DNA of 64,000 nucleotides, taken from a virus. The notes under the pieces were generated by a model that worked only from the letters and a program-made list of their open reading frames with translations, searched no databases and had not been told where the DNA came from. Position numbers and translations under genes: made by a program. Shown piece after piece: positions 20,534-48,785 of the stretch. Each line of letters begins with the position of its first letter. Position 1 is the stretch's first letter. Location of the stretch: IMG/VR virus record IMGVR_UViG_3300032242_001280, one strand, 5' to 3'.

Positions 20534-20905
20534 TTATGTATTATATAGCACTCTACCAATGTTACCCGCAGAAAAGTTTGTTATGTGGGCACGACACCAG
20601 ACGAAGTTGCCAGTAAAATTGAAATAATAAGTTCCTGAAACAGGAGTAGTTCCATCACCAATACTAGTGTCAGGAACATCAAACCAATCGCTTTCTTGTG
20701 GATTGGTTACGAGAGTAGCTTGAAATTTTAATATGCCTTTAAAAGCTATAACATTATAGGTTACTGTGTGCAACCCATCGGTATAACCATAGTAACCATT
20801 GCCTTTAAATTGGTTACTGCTCCAAGTAGTACTAGAGCCATCATATGGCGGATAAACTTGTCCAAACTGAATTGCACTTAATACTACGGTCGGTAAACTA
20901 GCCAT
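20534..20905 (-). CDS. Hypothetical beta-rich protein, probably virion-associated
   Basis: GYYGYTDGLHTV...NFTGNFVWCRA; late-type TAAATA upstream of the operon. Confidence 0.55.
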   Translation of the reverse strand: MASLPTVVLSAIQFGQVYPPYDGSSTTWSSNQFKGNGYYGYTDGLHTVTYNVIAFKGILKFQATLVTNPQESDWFDVPDTSIGDGTTPVSGTYYFNFTGNFVWCRAHITNFSAGNIGRVLYNT

Positions 20906-40481: not shown

Positions 40482-40698
40482 TACGAATTCCTAGTGTTTG
40501 CGGAGAGTGATCAAGATATGGGTTACCATCACGCCGCTCATAAAAATAAGCATCGCTATCATTAATGGTTACACTTAAATCACTATGAAATATATCGTAA
40601 TCAGTAAATTCGCCATCGCTATGATAGACACGAAATACCCACACTTCGCCAATTGGAAGCAGAACTCCGCTTACGCCGTTTGCACTTTTTGATTTCAT
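40462..40698 (-). CDS. Hypothetical protein
   Basis: ORF directly after a sigma70-type promoter. Confidence 0.55.
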   Translation of the reverse strand: MKSKSANGVSGVLLPIGEVWVFRVYHSDGEFTDYDIFHSDLSVTINDSDAYFYERRDGNPYLDHSPQTLGIRNGLLDL

Positions 40699-40736
40699 AA
40701 TACTACTATATGTATTAATTGGTTCAATGTCAATAA

Positions 40737-41234: not shown

Positions 41235-42068
41235 TTAGTCGTTGCCTGGATCGCCCTTGCACTTGGTTTTCTTTGCAGCGGCAACTGCCTTAAAGTCTGT
41301 TGCCCATAGTGGCAACTTATCAGTCTTCTTTGCATTTGGTGGAATTGGGAATACAAGACCACTTGCCTTTTCAACATCAGCAACAGTTACCTGAACCTTT
41401 GTTAGATCATTGCCTTGACCCTCTGCTTGTGGGAATAGAAACGCAAATGTTTCACCTGTTTGCTTGTCAATCACAATCTTGAATAAAAAATCAGGAACAA
41501 TAACCTTGTTAGCACCAATTGTCTTACTCTTGCCAGCAGTATAGATATCACCAGCATAGATGATTAGTGTATGATTGCGCGAGAATACCCAAGCACCTGT
41601 TGAACCTTCTAGCAACTTCCAGATACCACGATTAAGACCTGGCAACTGTGGCGACATATTGCTCATAAGAAAACTTTCAAACTCAACCTGCACATCCCAA
41701 CTCTGGTGAGCATCGTTTGCAATATGACCTTGATCATAACCACTAGCAGCATAATCACTTGGTGCCGAACGCTTGTCCGCTGGTAGAGCCGTGTCTGCAA
41801 CAAAAGCATTGGTGCGAGCAACGCAACCATTTACATGTTCTGGTGTGATATCCCATGCAGCCCATAGTGGTTCTTTGGCAACATTATCATGCATGATGAA
41901 ATAACCTTGACGGCATAGTGGGGTAGTGTCATGCTTGGCTGTATCGGTGATCTTACCATAAGGTAGAAAAGCAGCACAGACGCTATCTGGCTGATTTGGA
42001 CGCTGGTTCCATGCGTAGGCAAATGATGGGATTAGTAGTGCAAGTAGAATTACGAGAAGTTTCTTCAT
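41235..42068 (-). CDS. DNA/RNA non-specific endonuclease (NucA/EndoG family) with signal peptide
   Basis: MKKLLVILLALL..AYA signal; YDQGH; SNMSPQ...NRGIW..LE; VPDFLFK. Confidence 0.88.
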   Translation of the reverse strand: MKKLLVILLALLIPSFAYAWNQRPNQPDSVCAAFLPYGKITDTAKHDTTPLCRQGYFIMHDNVAKEPLWAAWDITPEHVNGCVARTNAFVADTALPADKRSAPSDYAASGYDQGHIANDAHQSWDVQVEFESFLMSNMSPQLPGLNRGIWKLLEGSTGAWVFSRNHTLIIYAGDIYTAGKSKTIGANKVIVPDFLFKIVIDKQTGETFAFLFPQAEGQGNDLTKVQVTVADVEKASGLVFPIPPNAKKTDKLPLWATDFKAVAAAKKTKCKGDPGND

Positions 42069-42104
42069 TGAGATATTTCCTTTTTGGATAAGGTATTTAA
42101 CAAT

Positions 42105-42139
42105 AAAAAAACACCGCAGAGTTTAATCTACGGTGTTTT
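42105..42139 (-). terminator. Rho-independent terminator
   Basis: AAAACACCGTAGA-TTAAAC-TCTGCGGTGTTTTTTT. Confidence 0.8.
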
Positions 42140-42313
42140 CTATCTGCTAGTTAATACGATATTGTTTAGTTTTTACACTTTACATTCTGTTAGTTATTTA
42201 CATGTTATTATTTTTAATTTTTAAGCTAGTTATTTAAAGTTAGTTTTCAAAGTTAGTTTTTACTACTGTCTATATGTTAAGCTAGTTATAGGTGCCATTC
42301 AGAGTGACCCTAC
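42105..42313 (-). ncRNA. Candidate ~210-nt small RNA with seven AACUA repeats
   Basis: Own TAAATA promoter (42319-42324), 5' hairpin, 7x AACTA in an A/U-rich body, 3' intrinsic terminator; no credible ORF. Confidence 0.55.
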
Positions 42314-42328
42314 ATCTTTATTTATCAT

Positions 42329-42526
42329 TTAGCATTTAATGCCAATATTTTTTAGCATGTCTCGTGCTTCGCTGCAATCTTTCTTTTCAAGATCGCAACA
42401 CATCATATCCATCAAAACCATTTCACATGTGACTGTATCCAATGAATCAACCCAATTTTTAATAATTGGTTGCGTGAAGTTGTAACTATATGACCAATTA
42501 TCTTGTTTATCATTTTCCATTTTCAA
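42329..42526 (-). CDS. Small hypothetical protein
   Basis: Downstream of a TTGACA promoter and AGGAG SD. Confidence 0.5.
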   Translation of the reverse strand: MKMENDKQDNWSYSYNFTQPIIKNWVDSLDTVTCEMVLMDMMCCDLEKKDCSEARDMLKNIGIKC

Positions 42527-42562
42527 CTCCTAAGTTATTAGTAAAGTATAATACTAAAACGG

Positions 42563-43192
42563 TTAATTGTCAATGGTTTTATTCAAGATATCTGGGTTGT
42601 TTTCCATAAAATTTTTGATAGTATCAAATGAATCATGAAATCTAATTTGAAATATTTTACGCAGATTATTATTTTCTATAGCATGTGTTTTAGTTGTGTC
42701 TAGTAGCCATGCTGTTTTTGGTATGGAATTATATGATAGCGTAGTATCGCCATCTTTTACCCATGTGTGTGCATTTGTGTCTTCGCATGCTACAATAAAA
42801 TTTATGTTACAATGACCTAAGTTTCCTTCATTGTCTTTCTTGCCGTCAATATGCGGTTTGACATATGAATCATGTTCAAAATAAGAAAAGTTGACAAAAT
42901 TTAAATTATTTTTTAAAAAATGTTCCTTGACATTTTTGCTCCATGGCAGCATAGTTTCTAGAAAATGACCGCACCAATTTAACCATGGTTTTCCATCTGT
43001 AAGTCTGTAATTTGCAATGACGCTTCCGTTATTTTTTATATTATATATATCTGCGCTATATGCAGCTTCATGCGTTACATGTTCTTCATACTTTCCTTCT
43101 TTGATCTTAGTGAAAAGGTGCGCAGCTATCTTGTCAACTTTTTTCCAATCAGTATTTTTTAATAAATTGATATTTTTAATTTCGTAAAGCAT
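42563..43192 (-). CDS. 2OG-Fe(II) oxygenase/cupin-like protein
   Basis: PHID...NINF...THAIEN...RKIFQIRF (HxD...H...R). Confidence 0.6.
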   Translation of the reverse strand: MLYEIKNINLLKNTDWKKVDKIAAHLFTKIKEGKYEEHVTHEAAYSADIYNIKNNGSVIANYRLTDGKPWLNWCGHFLETMLPWSKNVKEHFLKNNLNFVNFSYFEHDSYVKPHIDGKKDNEGNLGHCNINFIVACEDTNAHTWVKDGDTTLSYNSIPKTAWLLDTTKTHAIENNNLRKIFQIRFHDSFDTIKNFMENNPDILNKTIDN

Positions 43193-43449: not shown

Positions 43450-43636
43450 TGCGCGGAAGAGAAGTTGCTTCCTTAACCAAATCAATAAGTTCTTCAACTG
43501 TACTAACGATGATCTTTGAAGTTTTCCATTCATTGTCTTCATCTCGACCGCCAACTTCAATCATGTATCCATTGTCATACATATTAACGCTGAAATTTTC
43601 ATTAACGGTCTTCAACTTGTCTTTTAAACTAGCCAT
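43442..43636 (-). CDS. Small hypothetical protein
   Basis: AGGAG SD and promoter upstream. Confidence 0.6.
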   Translation of the reverse strand: MASLKDKLKTVNENFSVNMYDNGYMIEVGGRDEDNEWKTSKIIVSTVEELIDLVKEATSLPRND

Positions 43637-47011: not shown

Positions 47012-48785
47012 TGTCCATTTCTCAATGATGCCAACACATATTCTTCACTGGTCATATTAGCATAGGCTTGAATGTGACCTAATCTAATTGCCTTTGTAAT
47101 TATTCTTTCTTCTGTTTCGGTTAAGTGACCAGAATGCACTCTAATTTCAGCACGAGGCACAAGACGCAAACCATCAATAAACCTGAATTGTCTATGATTT
47201 GGACCTACGCTTACAGTATCGGATTTTTCAGCGGTGATCATATCTGTTCATATACCTTTGGCGATTAGCATCAACTAACTGTGACATTATATCATTAAAC
47301 TCTTTACTGACCACCCATGGTTTTTCGGCGTTTGGAATTATCTCTTTACTATCCGCAAACATCATGAAACCTTCAAATGTTTTTGGGTCATGAACAAGCC
47401 ACAACTTATCTTCCGCCCACAGTTTAAACAATTCACTTGTAGTATAGGTCACTTACAAATCTCGTTGATTTCTGCAACTGTGCGTGTGGTCTTGGCATAT
47501 TCTACTTTACAACTGCTCTTCTGCCAACTATCAACACCTGCACCAACCATAATAGCAGACATAACAACTGCCATCATAATACAATACCATTTATATTCCA
47601 TTATAAATTATCCTTTGAACATTGTGGACACAGTAGTTTCTGTGTCATATCTAATTTATCTGGCTCACCAAACCTACTATGCGCTTCCCATACTGGTTCC
47701 ATCTTGTGATAAGAATAGTACCAGCCTTGTAGTTGCTTAAAGCGTTCTTCGGTTACTGTTGCTGCACTATTAAATTGTGCCATTGTTTGATCAGTTCTTG
47801 TTGCAGTATCGGCTTCTTGTTGTCTTTCGCATATGTGTTCTTCCTCATGATTACACGCATCGCATTGCAGCGTAAGAACATAGGTTTTTAAAACAAAGGT
47901 TTTAAGAGGCATTTGCTTTTACCACTGCAATAGAACGCCAATCTGTATTTTCATCTAATACCACACTATTCACGGCATCGTTATTTTTGCTCAATAGATT
48001 ATGCAGAACTCTTGCTGCATCACCACGAACGCCATAACAATTTTTATCACAACGATATACAGAACCACTTGCACCATAGAATAGCCAATGATTGTCTTCT
48101 TCACCCACAGCAGTGATACCACTGTTCATGCGCCAAGCATCGCCATCCAGATAGCCACCACTCCAACCTGCCAGAACTTTATTATAAGTTTGACCGTTGT
48201 TAGTGATATTCACTACTACCCAGTTATGCGGTGTGTAATCATAACTCATCTCATTGCAATCCAAAATGTTTTTTTACATCTTCGATGCATCGACGCACTT
48301 CCATGTCTTCACGATTAAGGTCTCCCATAAACCGTTTGTTTAAAGTATCTACACATTCCTGAATAACCAACTGCGCAAACTTCTCAACATCTTCTTGTTC
48401 GGCATTGCCATTAATAAAGTAGTGTCTAGGTGTTTCATGATCTACATAGTTCAACAATCCAGCATCTAGCGCAAGTTCTTTAATTCGCTCATTCATCGTG
48501 CTTTTCCCAACAATCATACTCATCGTCCCAATGACGATTATCATATAACTTAACACTAACATAGAACCACAGTATTGTCAAGTCAAATTCTGGACCAGCG
48601 TGATCACGACCAAACCACCAAGTGTCAAGATTGATGCTAAAAAATTCATCTAAATCGCTCCAAAATGAAACTTGTATTTCAAAGTTTTTATGTCTGGTAA
48701 TGCGGTAATTCCGTAAAAAAACATTACTAGTTGATACCCAAGACTTGGCAAATGGATTGCCTATTCGTAAATGAAATCCTATCAT
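47008..48785 (-). other. Run of about seven small coupled hypothetical ORFs
   Basis: 47008-47241, 47228-47452, ~47449-47601, 47601-47912, 47902-48264, 48251-~48496, 48489-~48785; overlapping starts and stops. Confidence 0.55.

What the first reader, a model, noticed from the sequence alone, without database searches (positions are those of the whole stretch)
42105..42324. Candidate late small RNA with seven AACUA repeats between a 5' hairpin and a terminator (protein sponge or decoy?)
Seen: one of the longest non-coding stretches in the window. On the minus strand: TAAATA, a hairpin (TAGG-GTCA/TGGC-A-CCTA), an A/U-rich body with AACTA seven times (plus-strand TAGTT at 42148, 42167, 42191, 42227, 42241, 42254, 42283; consensus WAACTARC; ttaagctagttat and aaagttagtttt each occur twice), then a strong intrinsic terminator. 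Only an 11-codon ORF was noted. Established: this architecture is typical of titrating RNAs (CsrB/RsmZ, CrcZ) and of phage mimics of type III antitoxin RNAs, but the motif is not GGA. Inference: a phage sponge RNA for an unknown host RNA-binding protein or sequence-specific toxin RNase. An iteron-like origin is the alternative.
Basis: partly seen in the sequence, partly recalled or inferred. Interest (0 to 1): 0.7.

Follow-up and report, generated by a model that had tools for sequence, protein, structure and literature searches.

The report
Repeat-bearing small RNA of lake phages
A 220-base gene-free stretch of an uncultured giant freshwater phage is a conserved, self-contained unit (phage promoter box, 5' hairpin, loose A-rich body with up to seven AACUA(G/A)C words, terminator) that most likely makes a small non-coding RNA acting as a multi-site bait; its partner is unknown and its expression could not be checked.

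Summary
All seven AACTA copies, the 5' hairpin, both duplicated 11-13-mers and the terminator lie at the stated coordinates. No other 160-nt stretch of the window has more than three copies. The wider word AACTARC occurs 6 times against 0.34 expected from local shuffles.

I found 18 distinct versions, all from freshwater-lake phage contigs. There were none in 185,579 species genomes and no Rfam match. The unit occurs once in the window and once in a complete 338-kb relative. It always runs from TAAATA to the terminator, while unrelated genes are inserted on either side in some relatives. It is 73-97% identical where third codon positions of the neighbouring nuclease gene are only 52-82% identical, so it is under selection. 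TAAATA precedes 17 of 78 gene starts (2.3 expected), as expected of a T4-late-like promoter. Stems keep pairing through compensatory changes and use G-U pairs, which points to an RNA from the minus strand. The body is about 50% A and poorly structured, with 2-7 motif copies at irregular, variable spacing.

Best reading: an autonomous phage small-RNA gene that acts as a multivalent bait. The sponge function, the partner and transcription itself are untested. The scan had not noted this element on other DNA.

The parts
42319..42324 (-). TAAATA box, the proposed T4-late-like promoter of the unit. The inferred start lies about 6-8 nt downstream, at the foot of the hairpin.
   Evidence: Conserved as TAAATAA(A/G)(A/G)ATGTAGG in 17 of 18 versions whatever gene lies upstream. 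TAAATA lies within 60 nt upstream of 17 of 78 minus-strand gene starts, against 2.3 expected.
42287..42314 (-). 5' hairpin: a 6-bp outer stem UGUAGG/CCUAUA, a one-base 3' bulge, a 4-bp inner stem GUCA/UGGC and a 7-nt loop.
   Evidence: Folded. The same architecture is kept in all variants, with a replaced inner stem in L005 (GAGU/ACUC) and a replaced outer stem in L004. 98% of cells are paired, and G-U pairs make the structure strand-specific.
42142..42286 (-). A-rich (about 52% A), weakly structured body that carries the motif copies.
   Evidence: The centroid fold shows no stable structure here. Mean unpaired probability is 0.5-0.7.
42281..42287 (-). Motif 1, AACTAGC, abutting the hairpin.
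   Evidence: Kept in the aligned position in 17 of 17 relatives.
42252..42258 (-). Motif 2, AACTAAC. It may pair weakly with the upstream AGUAGU (42262-42267).
   Evidence: Kept in 17 of 17. The small invariant hairpin comes from RNAalifold and shows no covariation.
42239..42245 (-). Motif 3, AACTAAC, a 13-nt tandem duplicate of motif 2.
   Evidence: Kept in 13 of 17.
42225..42231 (-). Motif 4, AACTAGC.
   Evidence: Kept in 16 of 17, and also present in the most distant version, L004.
42189..42195 (-). Motif 5, AACTAAC.
   Evidence: Kept in 16 of 17, mostly as AACTAGC, and also present in L004.
42165..42171 (-). Motif 6, AACTAAA (a variant).
   Evidence: Kept in 13 of 17.
42146..42152 (-). Motif 7, AACTAGC, the least conserved copy.
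   Evidence: Kept in 7 of 17.
42105..42141 (-). Intrinsic terminator (12-15-bp stem, 6-nt loop, 7 U).
   Evidence: Nine of 12 pairs keep pairing through changes on both sides across relatives.
42329..42520 (-). The usual upstream neighbour: an acidic 63-aa ORF ending in IGIKC, with no known family. It is not an obligate partner of the unit.
   Evidence: Separated from the element by other genes in L095/L096 and L116. Not the adjacent upstream gene on the short contig L111.
42545..42573 (-). Sigma-70-like promoter TTGACA-17-TATACT in front of the 63-aa ORF. In this phage it could also produce the element as a 3' UTR.
   Evidence: 11 of 12 consensus matches.
41235..42099 (-). The usual downstream neighbour: a signal-peptide-bearing DNA/RNA non-specific endonuclease gene with its own TAAATA box (42094-42099).
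   Evidence: Pfam PF01223, E 2e-39. TAAATA listed. Separated from the element by a 199-aa gene in L089. L100 and L117 show similar non-nuclease sequence right after the terminator.

Best explanation
The stretch 42105-42324 (minus strand) is a stand-alone gene for a small non-coding RNA of about 205 nt in a clade of uncultured freshwater jumbo-type phages. Transcription probably starts a few bases after a T4-late-like TAAATA box. In this particular phage the RNA may also be made as the tail of the upstream mRNA. The RNA begins with a stem-loop that should shield the 5' end, and it ends at a strong intrinsic terminator. The roughly 145-nt A-rich, largely unfolded body between them displays 2-7 same-sense copies of A-W-AACUA-R-C. 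The proposed mechanism is multivalent titration. The RNA would offer several equivalent single-stranded sites to a sequence-specific RNA-binding protein or endoribonuclease, most likely a host one, and so draw it away from its normal targets. What is shown: the unit is real, has fixed borders, is under purifying selection, has RNA-type stems and lacks coding potential. What is inferred: promoter use and timing, the existence of the transcript, and the bait mechanism. My odds are about 0.75 that it is a discrete RNA gene. The figure of 0.4 is for the full statement, including titration of a protein or RNase.
For: (1) Eighteen distinct versions always run from TAAATA to the terminator. Other genes are inserted exactly at either border: L095/96 and L116 upstream, L089 downstream, with similar non-nuclease sequence after the terminator in L100 and L117. 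L111 has a different upstream gene.
(2) Element identity to the window is 0.73-0.97. Third-codon identity of the adjacent nuclease gene in the same pairs is 0.52-0.82, for example L093 at 0.97 against 0.61.
(3) 98.7% of stem cells pair and 10 pairs carry changes on both sides. All slid controls pair 54% or less. Recurrent G-U pairs would be A-C mismatches on the other strand.
(4) TAAATA lies within 60 nt upstream of 17 of 78 gene starts, against 2.3 expected.
(5) AACTARC occurs 6 times against 0.34 expected, with 0 of 20,000 shuffles reaching 6. All 85 copies in the family are sense and none antisense. Position +5 is always a purine (G 38, A 17). Position +6 is C or A only.
(6) Motif columns are better conserved than spacers, 0.90 against 0.82, permutation p 0.03.
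(7) Copy number (2-7) and spacing (13-44 nt) vary between relatives and the body is weakly folded. This is the pattern expected of titrating RNAs.
(8) The unit is single-copy in the window and in a complete 338-kb relative.
(9) No ORF is conserved.
Against: Promoter use is inferred from motif enrichment only. Most of the 18 versions are close relatives, so independent evidence is thin. Hairpin covariation rests on about 3 variant lineages. The motif-versus-spacer contrast is modest. Motifs are no more exposed than the rest of the body. No candidate partner is encoded in the complete relative: RegA, Hfq, PemK/MazF and KH_1 were all absent. The host is unknown. A late-made RNA is an odd timing for a counter-defence decoy. 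High conservation could partly reflect recent exchange of a mosaic module.
Confidence: 0.4

Rival explanations
1. It is the same small RNA, but it acts by base pairing. The repeated AACUARC words would be multiple seeds for a host or phage RNA carrying G-Y-U-A-G-U-U, such as an mRNA, a tRNA, an rRNA precursor or a host sRNA that it sponges.
For: The purine-only variation at motif position +5 (G 38, A 17, never a pyrimidine) would be tolerated opposite a U, as a G-U or A-U pair. The unstructured body and the long U tail resemble Hfq-type sRNAs.
Against: No enriched or conserved complementary sites were found in the 64-kb window. Two genes start with AUGGCUAGUUUA, but relatives do not keep that start. 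Position +6 varies between C and A, which does not fit a single target. Seven seeds with free spacing are unusual for pairing RNAs. No Hfq is encoded by the complete relative and the host is unknown.
Confidence: 0.15
2. It is a DNA-level element. The direct repeats would be binding sites (iterons) for a phage DNA-binding protein, marking a replication origin, a partition site or a regulatory array.
For: The region is AT-rich and carries same-orientation direct repeats. There is one copy per genome. T4 oriE holds a cluster of 12-nt direct repeats whose role is still undefined (PMC3016281).
Against: Spacing is irregular (13-44 bp) and changes by insertions and deletions between relatives, whereas the T4 oriE repeats are evenly spaced. 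The repeats sit exactly between a promoter box and a terminator whose stems need G-U pairs, which is RNA logic. The sense strand is strongly skewed, 79 A against 42 T. Cumulative GC skew shows no turn at 42 kb, and genes on both sides run the same way. No Rep-like neighbour is recognisable, although the neighbours are all ORFans.
Confidence: 0.12
3. It is a cis-acting part of neighbouring transcripts. It could be a stabilising or insulating 3' UTR for the upstream operon, whose terminator keeps early transcription out of the nuclease gene. Or it could be a leader or attenuator for the downstream gene, with the repeated words binding a termination or antitermination factor.
For: A sigma-70-like promoter upstream would transcribe the 63-aa ORF straight into the element. 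In L089, L100 and L117 the next gene follows the terminator by about 15 nt without a TAAATA box of its own. Short RNAs made between a phage late promoter and its terminator are known (StxS, PMC7547250).
Against: The TAAATA-plus-hairpin 5' border is kept when the upstream gene changes. The nuclease gene has its own TAAATA box. No alternative (antiterminator) pairing with the terminator's 5' arm was predicted. Insulation needs only the terminator, not a conserved 145-nt body.
Confidence: 0.15
4. The body has no specific function. It would be an A-rich spacer whose words multiplied by replication slippage and look conserved only because the phages are closely related or exchanged the segment recently.
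For: A 13-nt tandem duplication is visible. Some 5-mer reaches 7 copies in 27% of local shuffles. The family is shallow.
Against: The element is far more conserved than synonymous sites next door in 12 pairwise comparisons. Four motif positions are kept in 16-17 of 17 relatives, and two survive in the most diverged version. The 7-mer never reaches the observed count in shuffles.
Confidence: 0.06

Closest known systems
Protein-titrating small RNAs: CsrB/CsrC/RsmY/RsmZ (CsrA/RsmA sponges) and CrcZ/CrcY (Hfq-Crc sponges)
   Same: A promoter-to-terminator non-coding RNA of a few hundred nt carries several copies of one short word. Copy number and spacing drift between relatives.
   Different: The word is AACUARC, not GGA (0-1 GGA per element) and not a conserved AAnAAnAA (0-5 copies, variable). 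The copies are not presented in hairpin loops. There is no Rfam match. It is encoded by a lytic-type jumbo phage. The partner is unknown.
Phage PhiTE pseudo-ToxI, a mimic of a type III antitoxin RNA (PMC3475682)
   Same: A non-coding repeat locus in the intergenic DNA of a large myophage, with a copy number that varies between phage lineages. The idea of an RNA decoy for a sequence-specific host endoribonuclease.
   Different: Pseudo-ToxI consists of regular 36-nt tandem units that fold into pseudoknots and are near-copies of a known host antitoxin. Here there are 7-nt words at irregular spacing in an unfolded body, with no regular period and no known host counterpart.
Short RNAs made between a phage late promoter and its terminator (StxS of Shiga-toxin phages, PMC7547250; lambda 6S leader RNA, from my own knowledge)
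   Same: A late-type promoter followed after about 200 nt by a strong terminator, upstream of late genes. The short RNA can act in trans.
   Different: Those units exist to serve Q antitermination at a single late operon. Here TAAATA boxes are scattered in front of many genes, and the downstream nuclease gene has its own.
T4 oriE iteron cluster (PMC3016281)
   Same: Direct repeats of about 12 nt in an intergenic region among small genes of a T4-related large phage, with the function still undefined.
   Different: The T4 repeats are evenly spaced. Here spacing is irregular and variable, and the array is enclosed by a promoter box, a hairpin and a terminator.

Membership tests
Csr/Rsm sponge RNAs (CsrB, RsmZ etc.) | Multiple GGA / ANGGA motifs, mostly in hairpin loops | tested here: not met
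   0-1 GGA and 0 ANGGA per element in all 18 versions.
Csr/Rsm sponge RNAs (CsrB, RsmZ etc.) | Match to the Rfam covariance models of the family | tested here: not met
   No family reaches its gathering score. With E up to 10, only sub-threshold matches centred on the terminator end appear; the best is psRNA14, 33.6 bits against a cut-off of 60.
CrcZ/CrcY-type Hfq-Crc sponges | Several conserved A-rich CA motifs (AAnAAnAA) | tested here: not met
   0-5 copies, not conserved between close relatives.
Type III antitoxin RNA or phage mimic (ToxI, pseudo-ToxI) | Regular tandem repeats of about 34-45 nt | tested here: not met
   Tandem Repeats Finder reports only a 13-nt x 2.8 duplication. Motif spacings are 13-44 nt and irregular.
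Type III antitoxin RNA or phage mimic (ToxI, pseudo-ToxI) | Array followed by a terminator and a ToxN/AbiQ-type endoRNase gene, or near-identity to a host antitoxin | tested here: not met
   The downstream gene is a signal-peptide Endonuclease_NS (PF01223) and is not always adjacent. The element's hairpin and 5' signature have no match in 185,579 species genomes.
Iteron-type replication origin | Evenly spaced direct repeats next to an initiator gene, with a strand or skew switch | tested here: not met
   Spacing is irregular and variable. There is no GC-skew turn at 42 kb and genes on both sides run the same way. No recognisable initiator gene is nearby, though the neighbours are ORFans.
Independent bacterial/phage small-RNA gene | Own promoter, own intrinsic terminator, no conserved ORF, conserved as a unit | tested here: met
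   TAAATA box and terminator are kept at fixed borders in variable surroundings. Terminator covariation is shown. No ORF is conserved. Promoter activity itself is inferred from enrichment.
Independent bacterial/phage small-RNA gene | A discrete transcript is detected | not testable with these tools
Hfq-dependent sRNA | Terminator hairpin with a long U tail, plus binding to Hfq | tested here: inconclusive
   A 7-9 U tail and an A-rich body are present. Hfq is not encoded by the complete relative. The host, and whether it has Hfq, is unknown.

The most novel reading that the evidence does not exclude
A lytic jumbo phage encodes a dedicated decoy RNA whose 2-7 exposed AACUARC words soak up a host sequence-specific RNA-cutting defence or RNA-binding regulator. 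MazF-type toxins that cut at AACU exist (PMC7291052). This would be a non-GGA, non-pseudoknot class of phage counter-defence or host-takeover sponge, whose copy number evolves by local duplication.
Probability: 0.2. Interest if true: 0.8.

Novelty: new variant of a known kind. Interest (0 to 1): 0.5.

Why it matters
Few small RNAs of strictly lytic phages, and of jumbo phages in particular, have a known function. RNA-based titration by phages is documented mainly for the antitoxin mimic of PhiTE. This is a conserved, cleanly bounded, uncatalogued RNA gene with a simple repeated word, so it makes a tractable test case. The word can be mutated, the RNA can be used as bait, and the partner it catches would show which host RNA-handling activity these abundant lake phages need to neutralise or borrow. 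If the repeats instead act on DNA, the element would help with the unresolved question of what iteron clusters do in T4-related phages.

Tried and rejected
- Known RNA family: Rfam gave nothing at gathering thresholds. With E up to 10 it gave only sub-threshold matches centred on the terminator end.
- Known phage: no megablast match among 50,697 phage records. Only distant protein matches.
- General phage signal: AACTAGCTTA and AAACTAACTTT are not used elsewhere in the window.
- Antisense targets in the window: short-word BLAST and a motif-complement scan found nothing above chance. Two gene starts with AUGGCUAGUUUA are not conserved in relatives.
- Host RNA or CRISPR-repeat mimic: the exact 24-nt hairpin and the degenerate 5' signature have no match in 185,579 species genomes.
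- Paralogues: nhmmer over 123 loci and the window found only the known copies. A motif-cluster pattern hit once in the complete 338-kb relative and not at all in a 264-kb distant relative.
- Phage-encoded partner: RegA, Hfq, PemK/MazF and KH_1 were not found in the complete relative. The RegA control rang in no control genome, so that result is uninformative.
- Obligate protein-RNA pair with the upstream 63-aa ORF: rejected, because other genes intervene in some relatives, and three more distant ORF homologues have no element directly downstream.
- Motif exposure: motifs are no more unpaired than the spacers.
- A scan for paired AACTAGCTTA words in viral contigs returned mostly unrelated tandem arrays.

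Full report
**What the window is.** All large ORFs around the finding lie on the minus strand. They include a ClpA-like ATPase (about 45% identical to those of Acinetobacter phage MD-2021a, Atu_ph07 and PA5oct), a clamp loader, an RNA ligase, baseplate-like and giant multidomain proteins and five tRNAs. There is no near-identical phage record. A relative that carries the same element is a complete 338-kb genome with direct terminal repeats. The window therefore comes from an uncultured jumbo-type phage. All related contigs are from freshwater-lake metagenomes.

**The observation.**
- This is the only place in 64 kb, on either strand, with four or more AACTA in 160 nt. Equally A-rich stretches elsewhere hold none or one.
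- Against local dinucleotide shuffles the 5-mer alone is only moderately unusual: mean 2.8, reaching 7 in 0.5% of shuffles. Some 5-mer reaches seven copies in 27% of shuffles, because the region is 50% A.
- Pooling 55 unique motif contexts from relatives widens the word to A-W-AACTA-R-C-W-K-A. Position +5 is always a purine and position +6 is C or A only.
- AACTARC occurs six times against 0.34 expected, and no shuffle in 20,000 reaches six.

**Relatives.** I searched with the downstream nuclease, with an alignment of the upstream small ORF, and with a 5'-signature pattern. Together these gave 18 distinct versions of the element (alignment A4). Four results matter.
1. Every version runs from TAAATAA(A/G)(A/G)ATGTAGG to the terminator. 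The surroundings differ:
   - an extra ORF (L095/96) or a methyltransferase-like gene (L116) sits between the small ORF and the element;
   - a 199-aa gene sits between the element and the nuclease gene in L089, and L100 and L117 show similar non-nuclease sequence right after the terminator;
   - L111 has a different upstream gene.

   Insertions therefore respect the borders of the unit.
2. The element is 73-97% identical to the window's copy. Third codon positions of the adjacent nuclease gene in the same pairs are 52-82% identical. That indicates purifying selection, or at least preferential retention.
3. The two stems pair in 98.7% of cells, against 54% or less for slid controls. Ten pairs changed on both sides, nine of them in the terminator. 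Recurrent G-U pairs work only in RNA read from the minus strand. The hairpin keeps its shape (6-bp stem, bulge, short inner stem) with a different inner stem in L005 and a different outer stem in L004. That covariation rests on few lineages.
4. Motif copies 1, 2, 4 and 5 are kept in 16-17 of 17 alignable relatives, and two survive in the most diverged version. Motif columns are somewhat better conserved than spacer columns (0.90 against 0.82, p 0.03). Copy number ranges from 2 to 7 and spacing from 13 to 44 nt, changing through insertions and deletions. All 85 copies are in the sense orientation.

**Promoter.** TAAATA lies within 60 nt upstream of 17 of 78 crudely called minus-strand gene starts, against 2.3 for random positions. 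One of these is the baseplate-like gene. This resembles the single -10-type TATA box of T4 late promoters, which have no -35 element (PMC2988020). By analogy the RNA would start at the foot of the hairpin. That step is inference. In this phage a near-consensus sigma-70-type promoter (42573-42545) would also read through the 63-aa ORF into the element, so the RNA could be made early as a 3' UTR as well. The window's copy contains two further TAAATA hexamers inside the body (42236 and 42200), but relatives do not keep them.

**What it is not.**
- No Rfam family matches.
- It has no GGA words and no conserved CA motifs, so it is not a Csr- or Crc-type sponge.
- It has no regular tandem period, so it is not built like a type III antitoxin or the pseudo-ToxI of PhiTE.
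- No ORF is conserved.
- It does not copy any sequence in 185,579 species genomes.
- It has no paralogue in the window or in the complete relative.
- Its motif is not a general signal of this phage.
- No complementary targets stand out in the window.
- The upstream ORF and the other neighbours belong to no known family.
- RegA, Hfq, MazF/PemK and KH_1 homologues were not found in the complete relative. The RegA control was uninformative.

**Mechanism.** The best-supported reading is an autonomous small-RNA gene. Its 5' stem-loop and terminator would stabilise a loosely folded A-rich body that offers several equivalent AACUARC sites. A short word repeated in one orientation, with drifting copy number and spacing, in an otherwise unconstrained single-stranded context is the hallmark of titrating RNAs. 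I therefore favour a multivalent bait for a sequence-specific RNA-binding protein or endoribonuclease, probably from the host. Endoribonuclease toxins that cut at AACU exist (PMC7291052), and a phage RNA decoy for a toxin RNase has a precedent (PMC3475682). These make the idea plausible but are not evidence for it. Points against:
- no partner and no host are known;
- the family is shallow;
- the motifs are not preferentially exposed;
- late timing would be odd for a counter-defence role.

**Rivals.**
- A base-pairing RNA with multiple seeds. The purine-only position would fit pairing to U, but no targets were seen.
- A DNA-level iteron array. It is single-copy, AT-rich and made of direct repeats, and T4 oriE is a precedent (PMC3016281). 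However, spacing is irregular, the stems follow RNA logic, and there is no skew or gene-orientation switch.
- A cis-acting 3' UTR, insulator or leader. The terminator does separate an upstream promoter from a nuclease gene, and in three relatives the next gene lacks its own TAAATA box.
- A neutral spacer, which is contradicted by the selection signal.

**Verdict.** The feature is real and conserved, and it is not in any catalogue searched here. The proposed anatomy is supported. The proposed sponge function is reasonable but unproven. I rate it a new variant of a known kind, with interest 0.5. The scan's earlier notes contain nothing on this element from other DNA.

Noticed in passing
window 42545-42573 (-): A near-perfect sigma-70-type promoter (TTGACA-17-TATACT) sits at the very end of a 209-aa ORFan. 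That ORFan is absent at this position in relatives. It looks like a moron-style insertion that brought its own promoter for the 63-aa ORF.
   Followed up: partly
window, minus strand, e.g. 57708, 51407, 45551, 43202, 42099, 41174, 38570, 37828, 33826, 31033: The hexamer TAAATA, often TAAATAC(T), lies 10-55 nt upstream of many gene starts (17 of 78 against 2.3 expected). It is probably this phage's T4-late-like promoter.
   Followed up: yes
window 41235-42068 (-) and loci L001-L069: A DNA/RNA non-specific endonuclease with a signal peptide is widespread in freshwater jumbo-phage contigs: 69 loci at 40-98% identity. An exported phage nuclease is uncommon, and its role (incoming or extracellular DNA?) is open.
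   Followed up: no
window 42329-42520 versus L001, L003, L004, L005: Mosaicism at the element. The window's nuclease is 98% identical to that of L001. Its upstream 63-aa ORF is only 35% identical to L001's and closer to those of L004/L005 (48% and 43%). Recombination breakpoints therefore seem to fall at or next to the element.
   Followed up: partly
L074 5882-6241: An unrelated viral contig carries seven 52-nt tandem repeats. Each contains AAAAACTAGCTTA and AAAAACTAAC, the same two words as here. The array lies between a D12 adenine methyltransferase gene and SRAP/UmuD/UmuC-like genes. It may be an iteron array or a coincidence.
   Followed up: partly
window 20894-20905 and 43625-43636 (-): Two otherwise unrelated genes begin with the same AUGGCUAGUUUA, which is complementary to the AACUAGC word. 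Relatives of the second gene start differently, so this is probably chance.
   Followed up: partly
window 42251-42267 (-): RNAalifold predicts a small invariant hairpin (AGUAGU / ACUA-ACU with an AAAA loop) that would partly hide motif 2. It shows no covariation, so it is unconfirmed.
   Followed up: partly
window 48563-48781 and 40566-40736: By a crude gene call these are other gene-free gaps, of 219 and 171 nt. I did not examine them for similar promoter-to-terminator RNA units.
   Followed up: no
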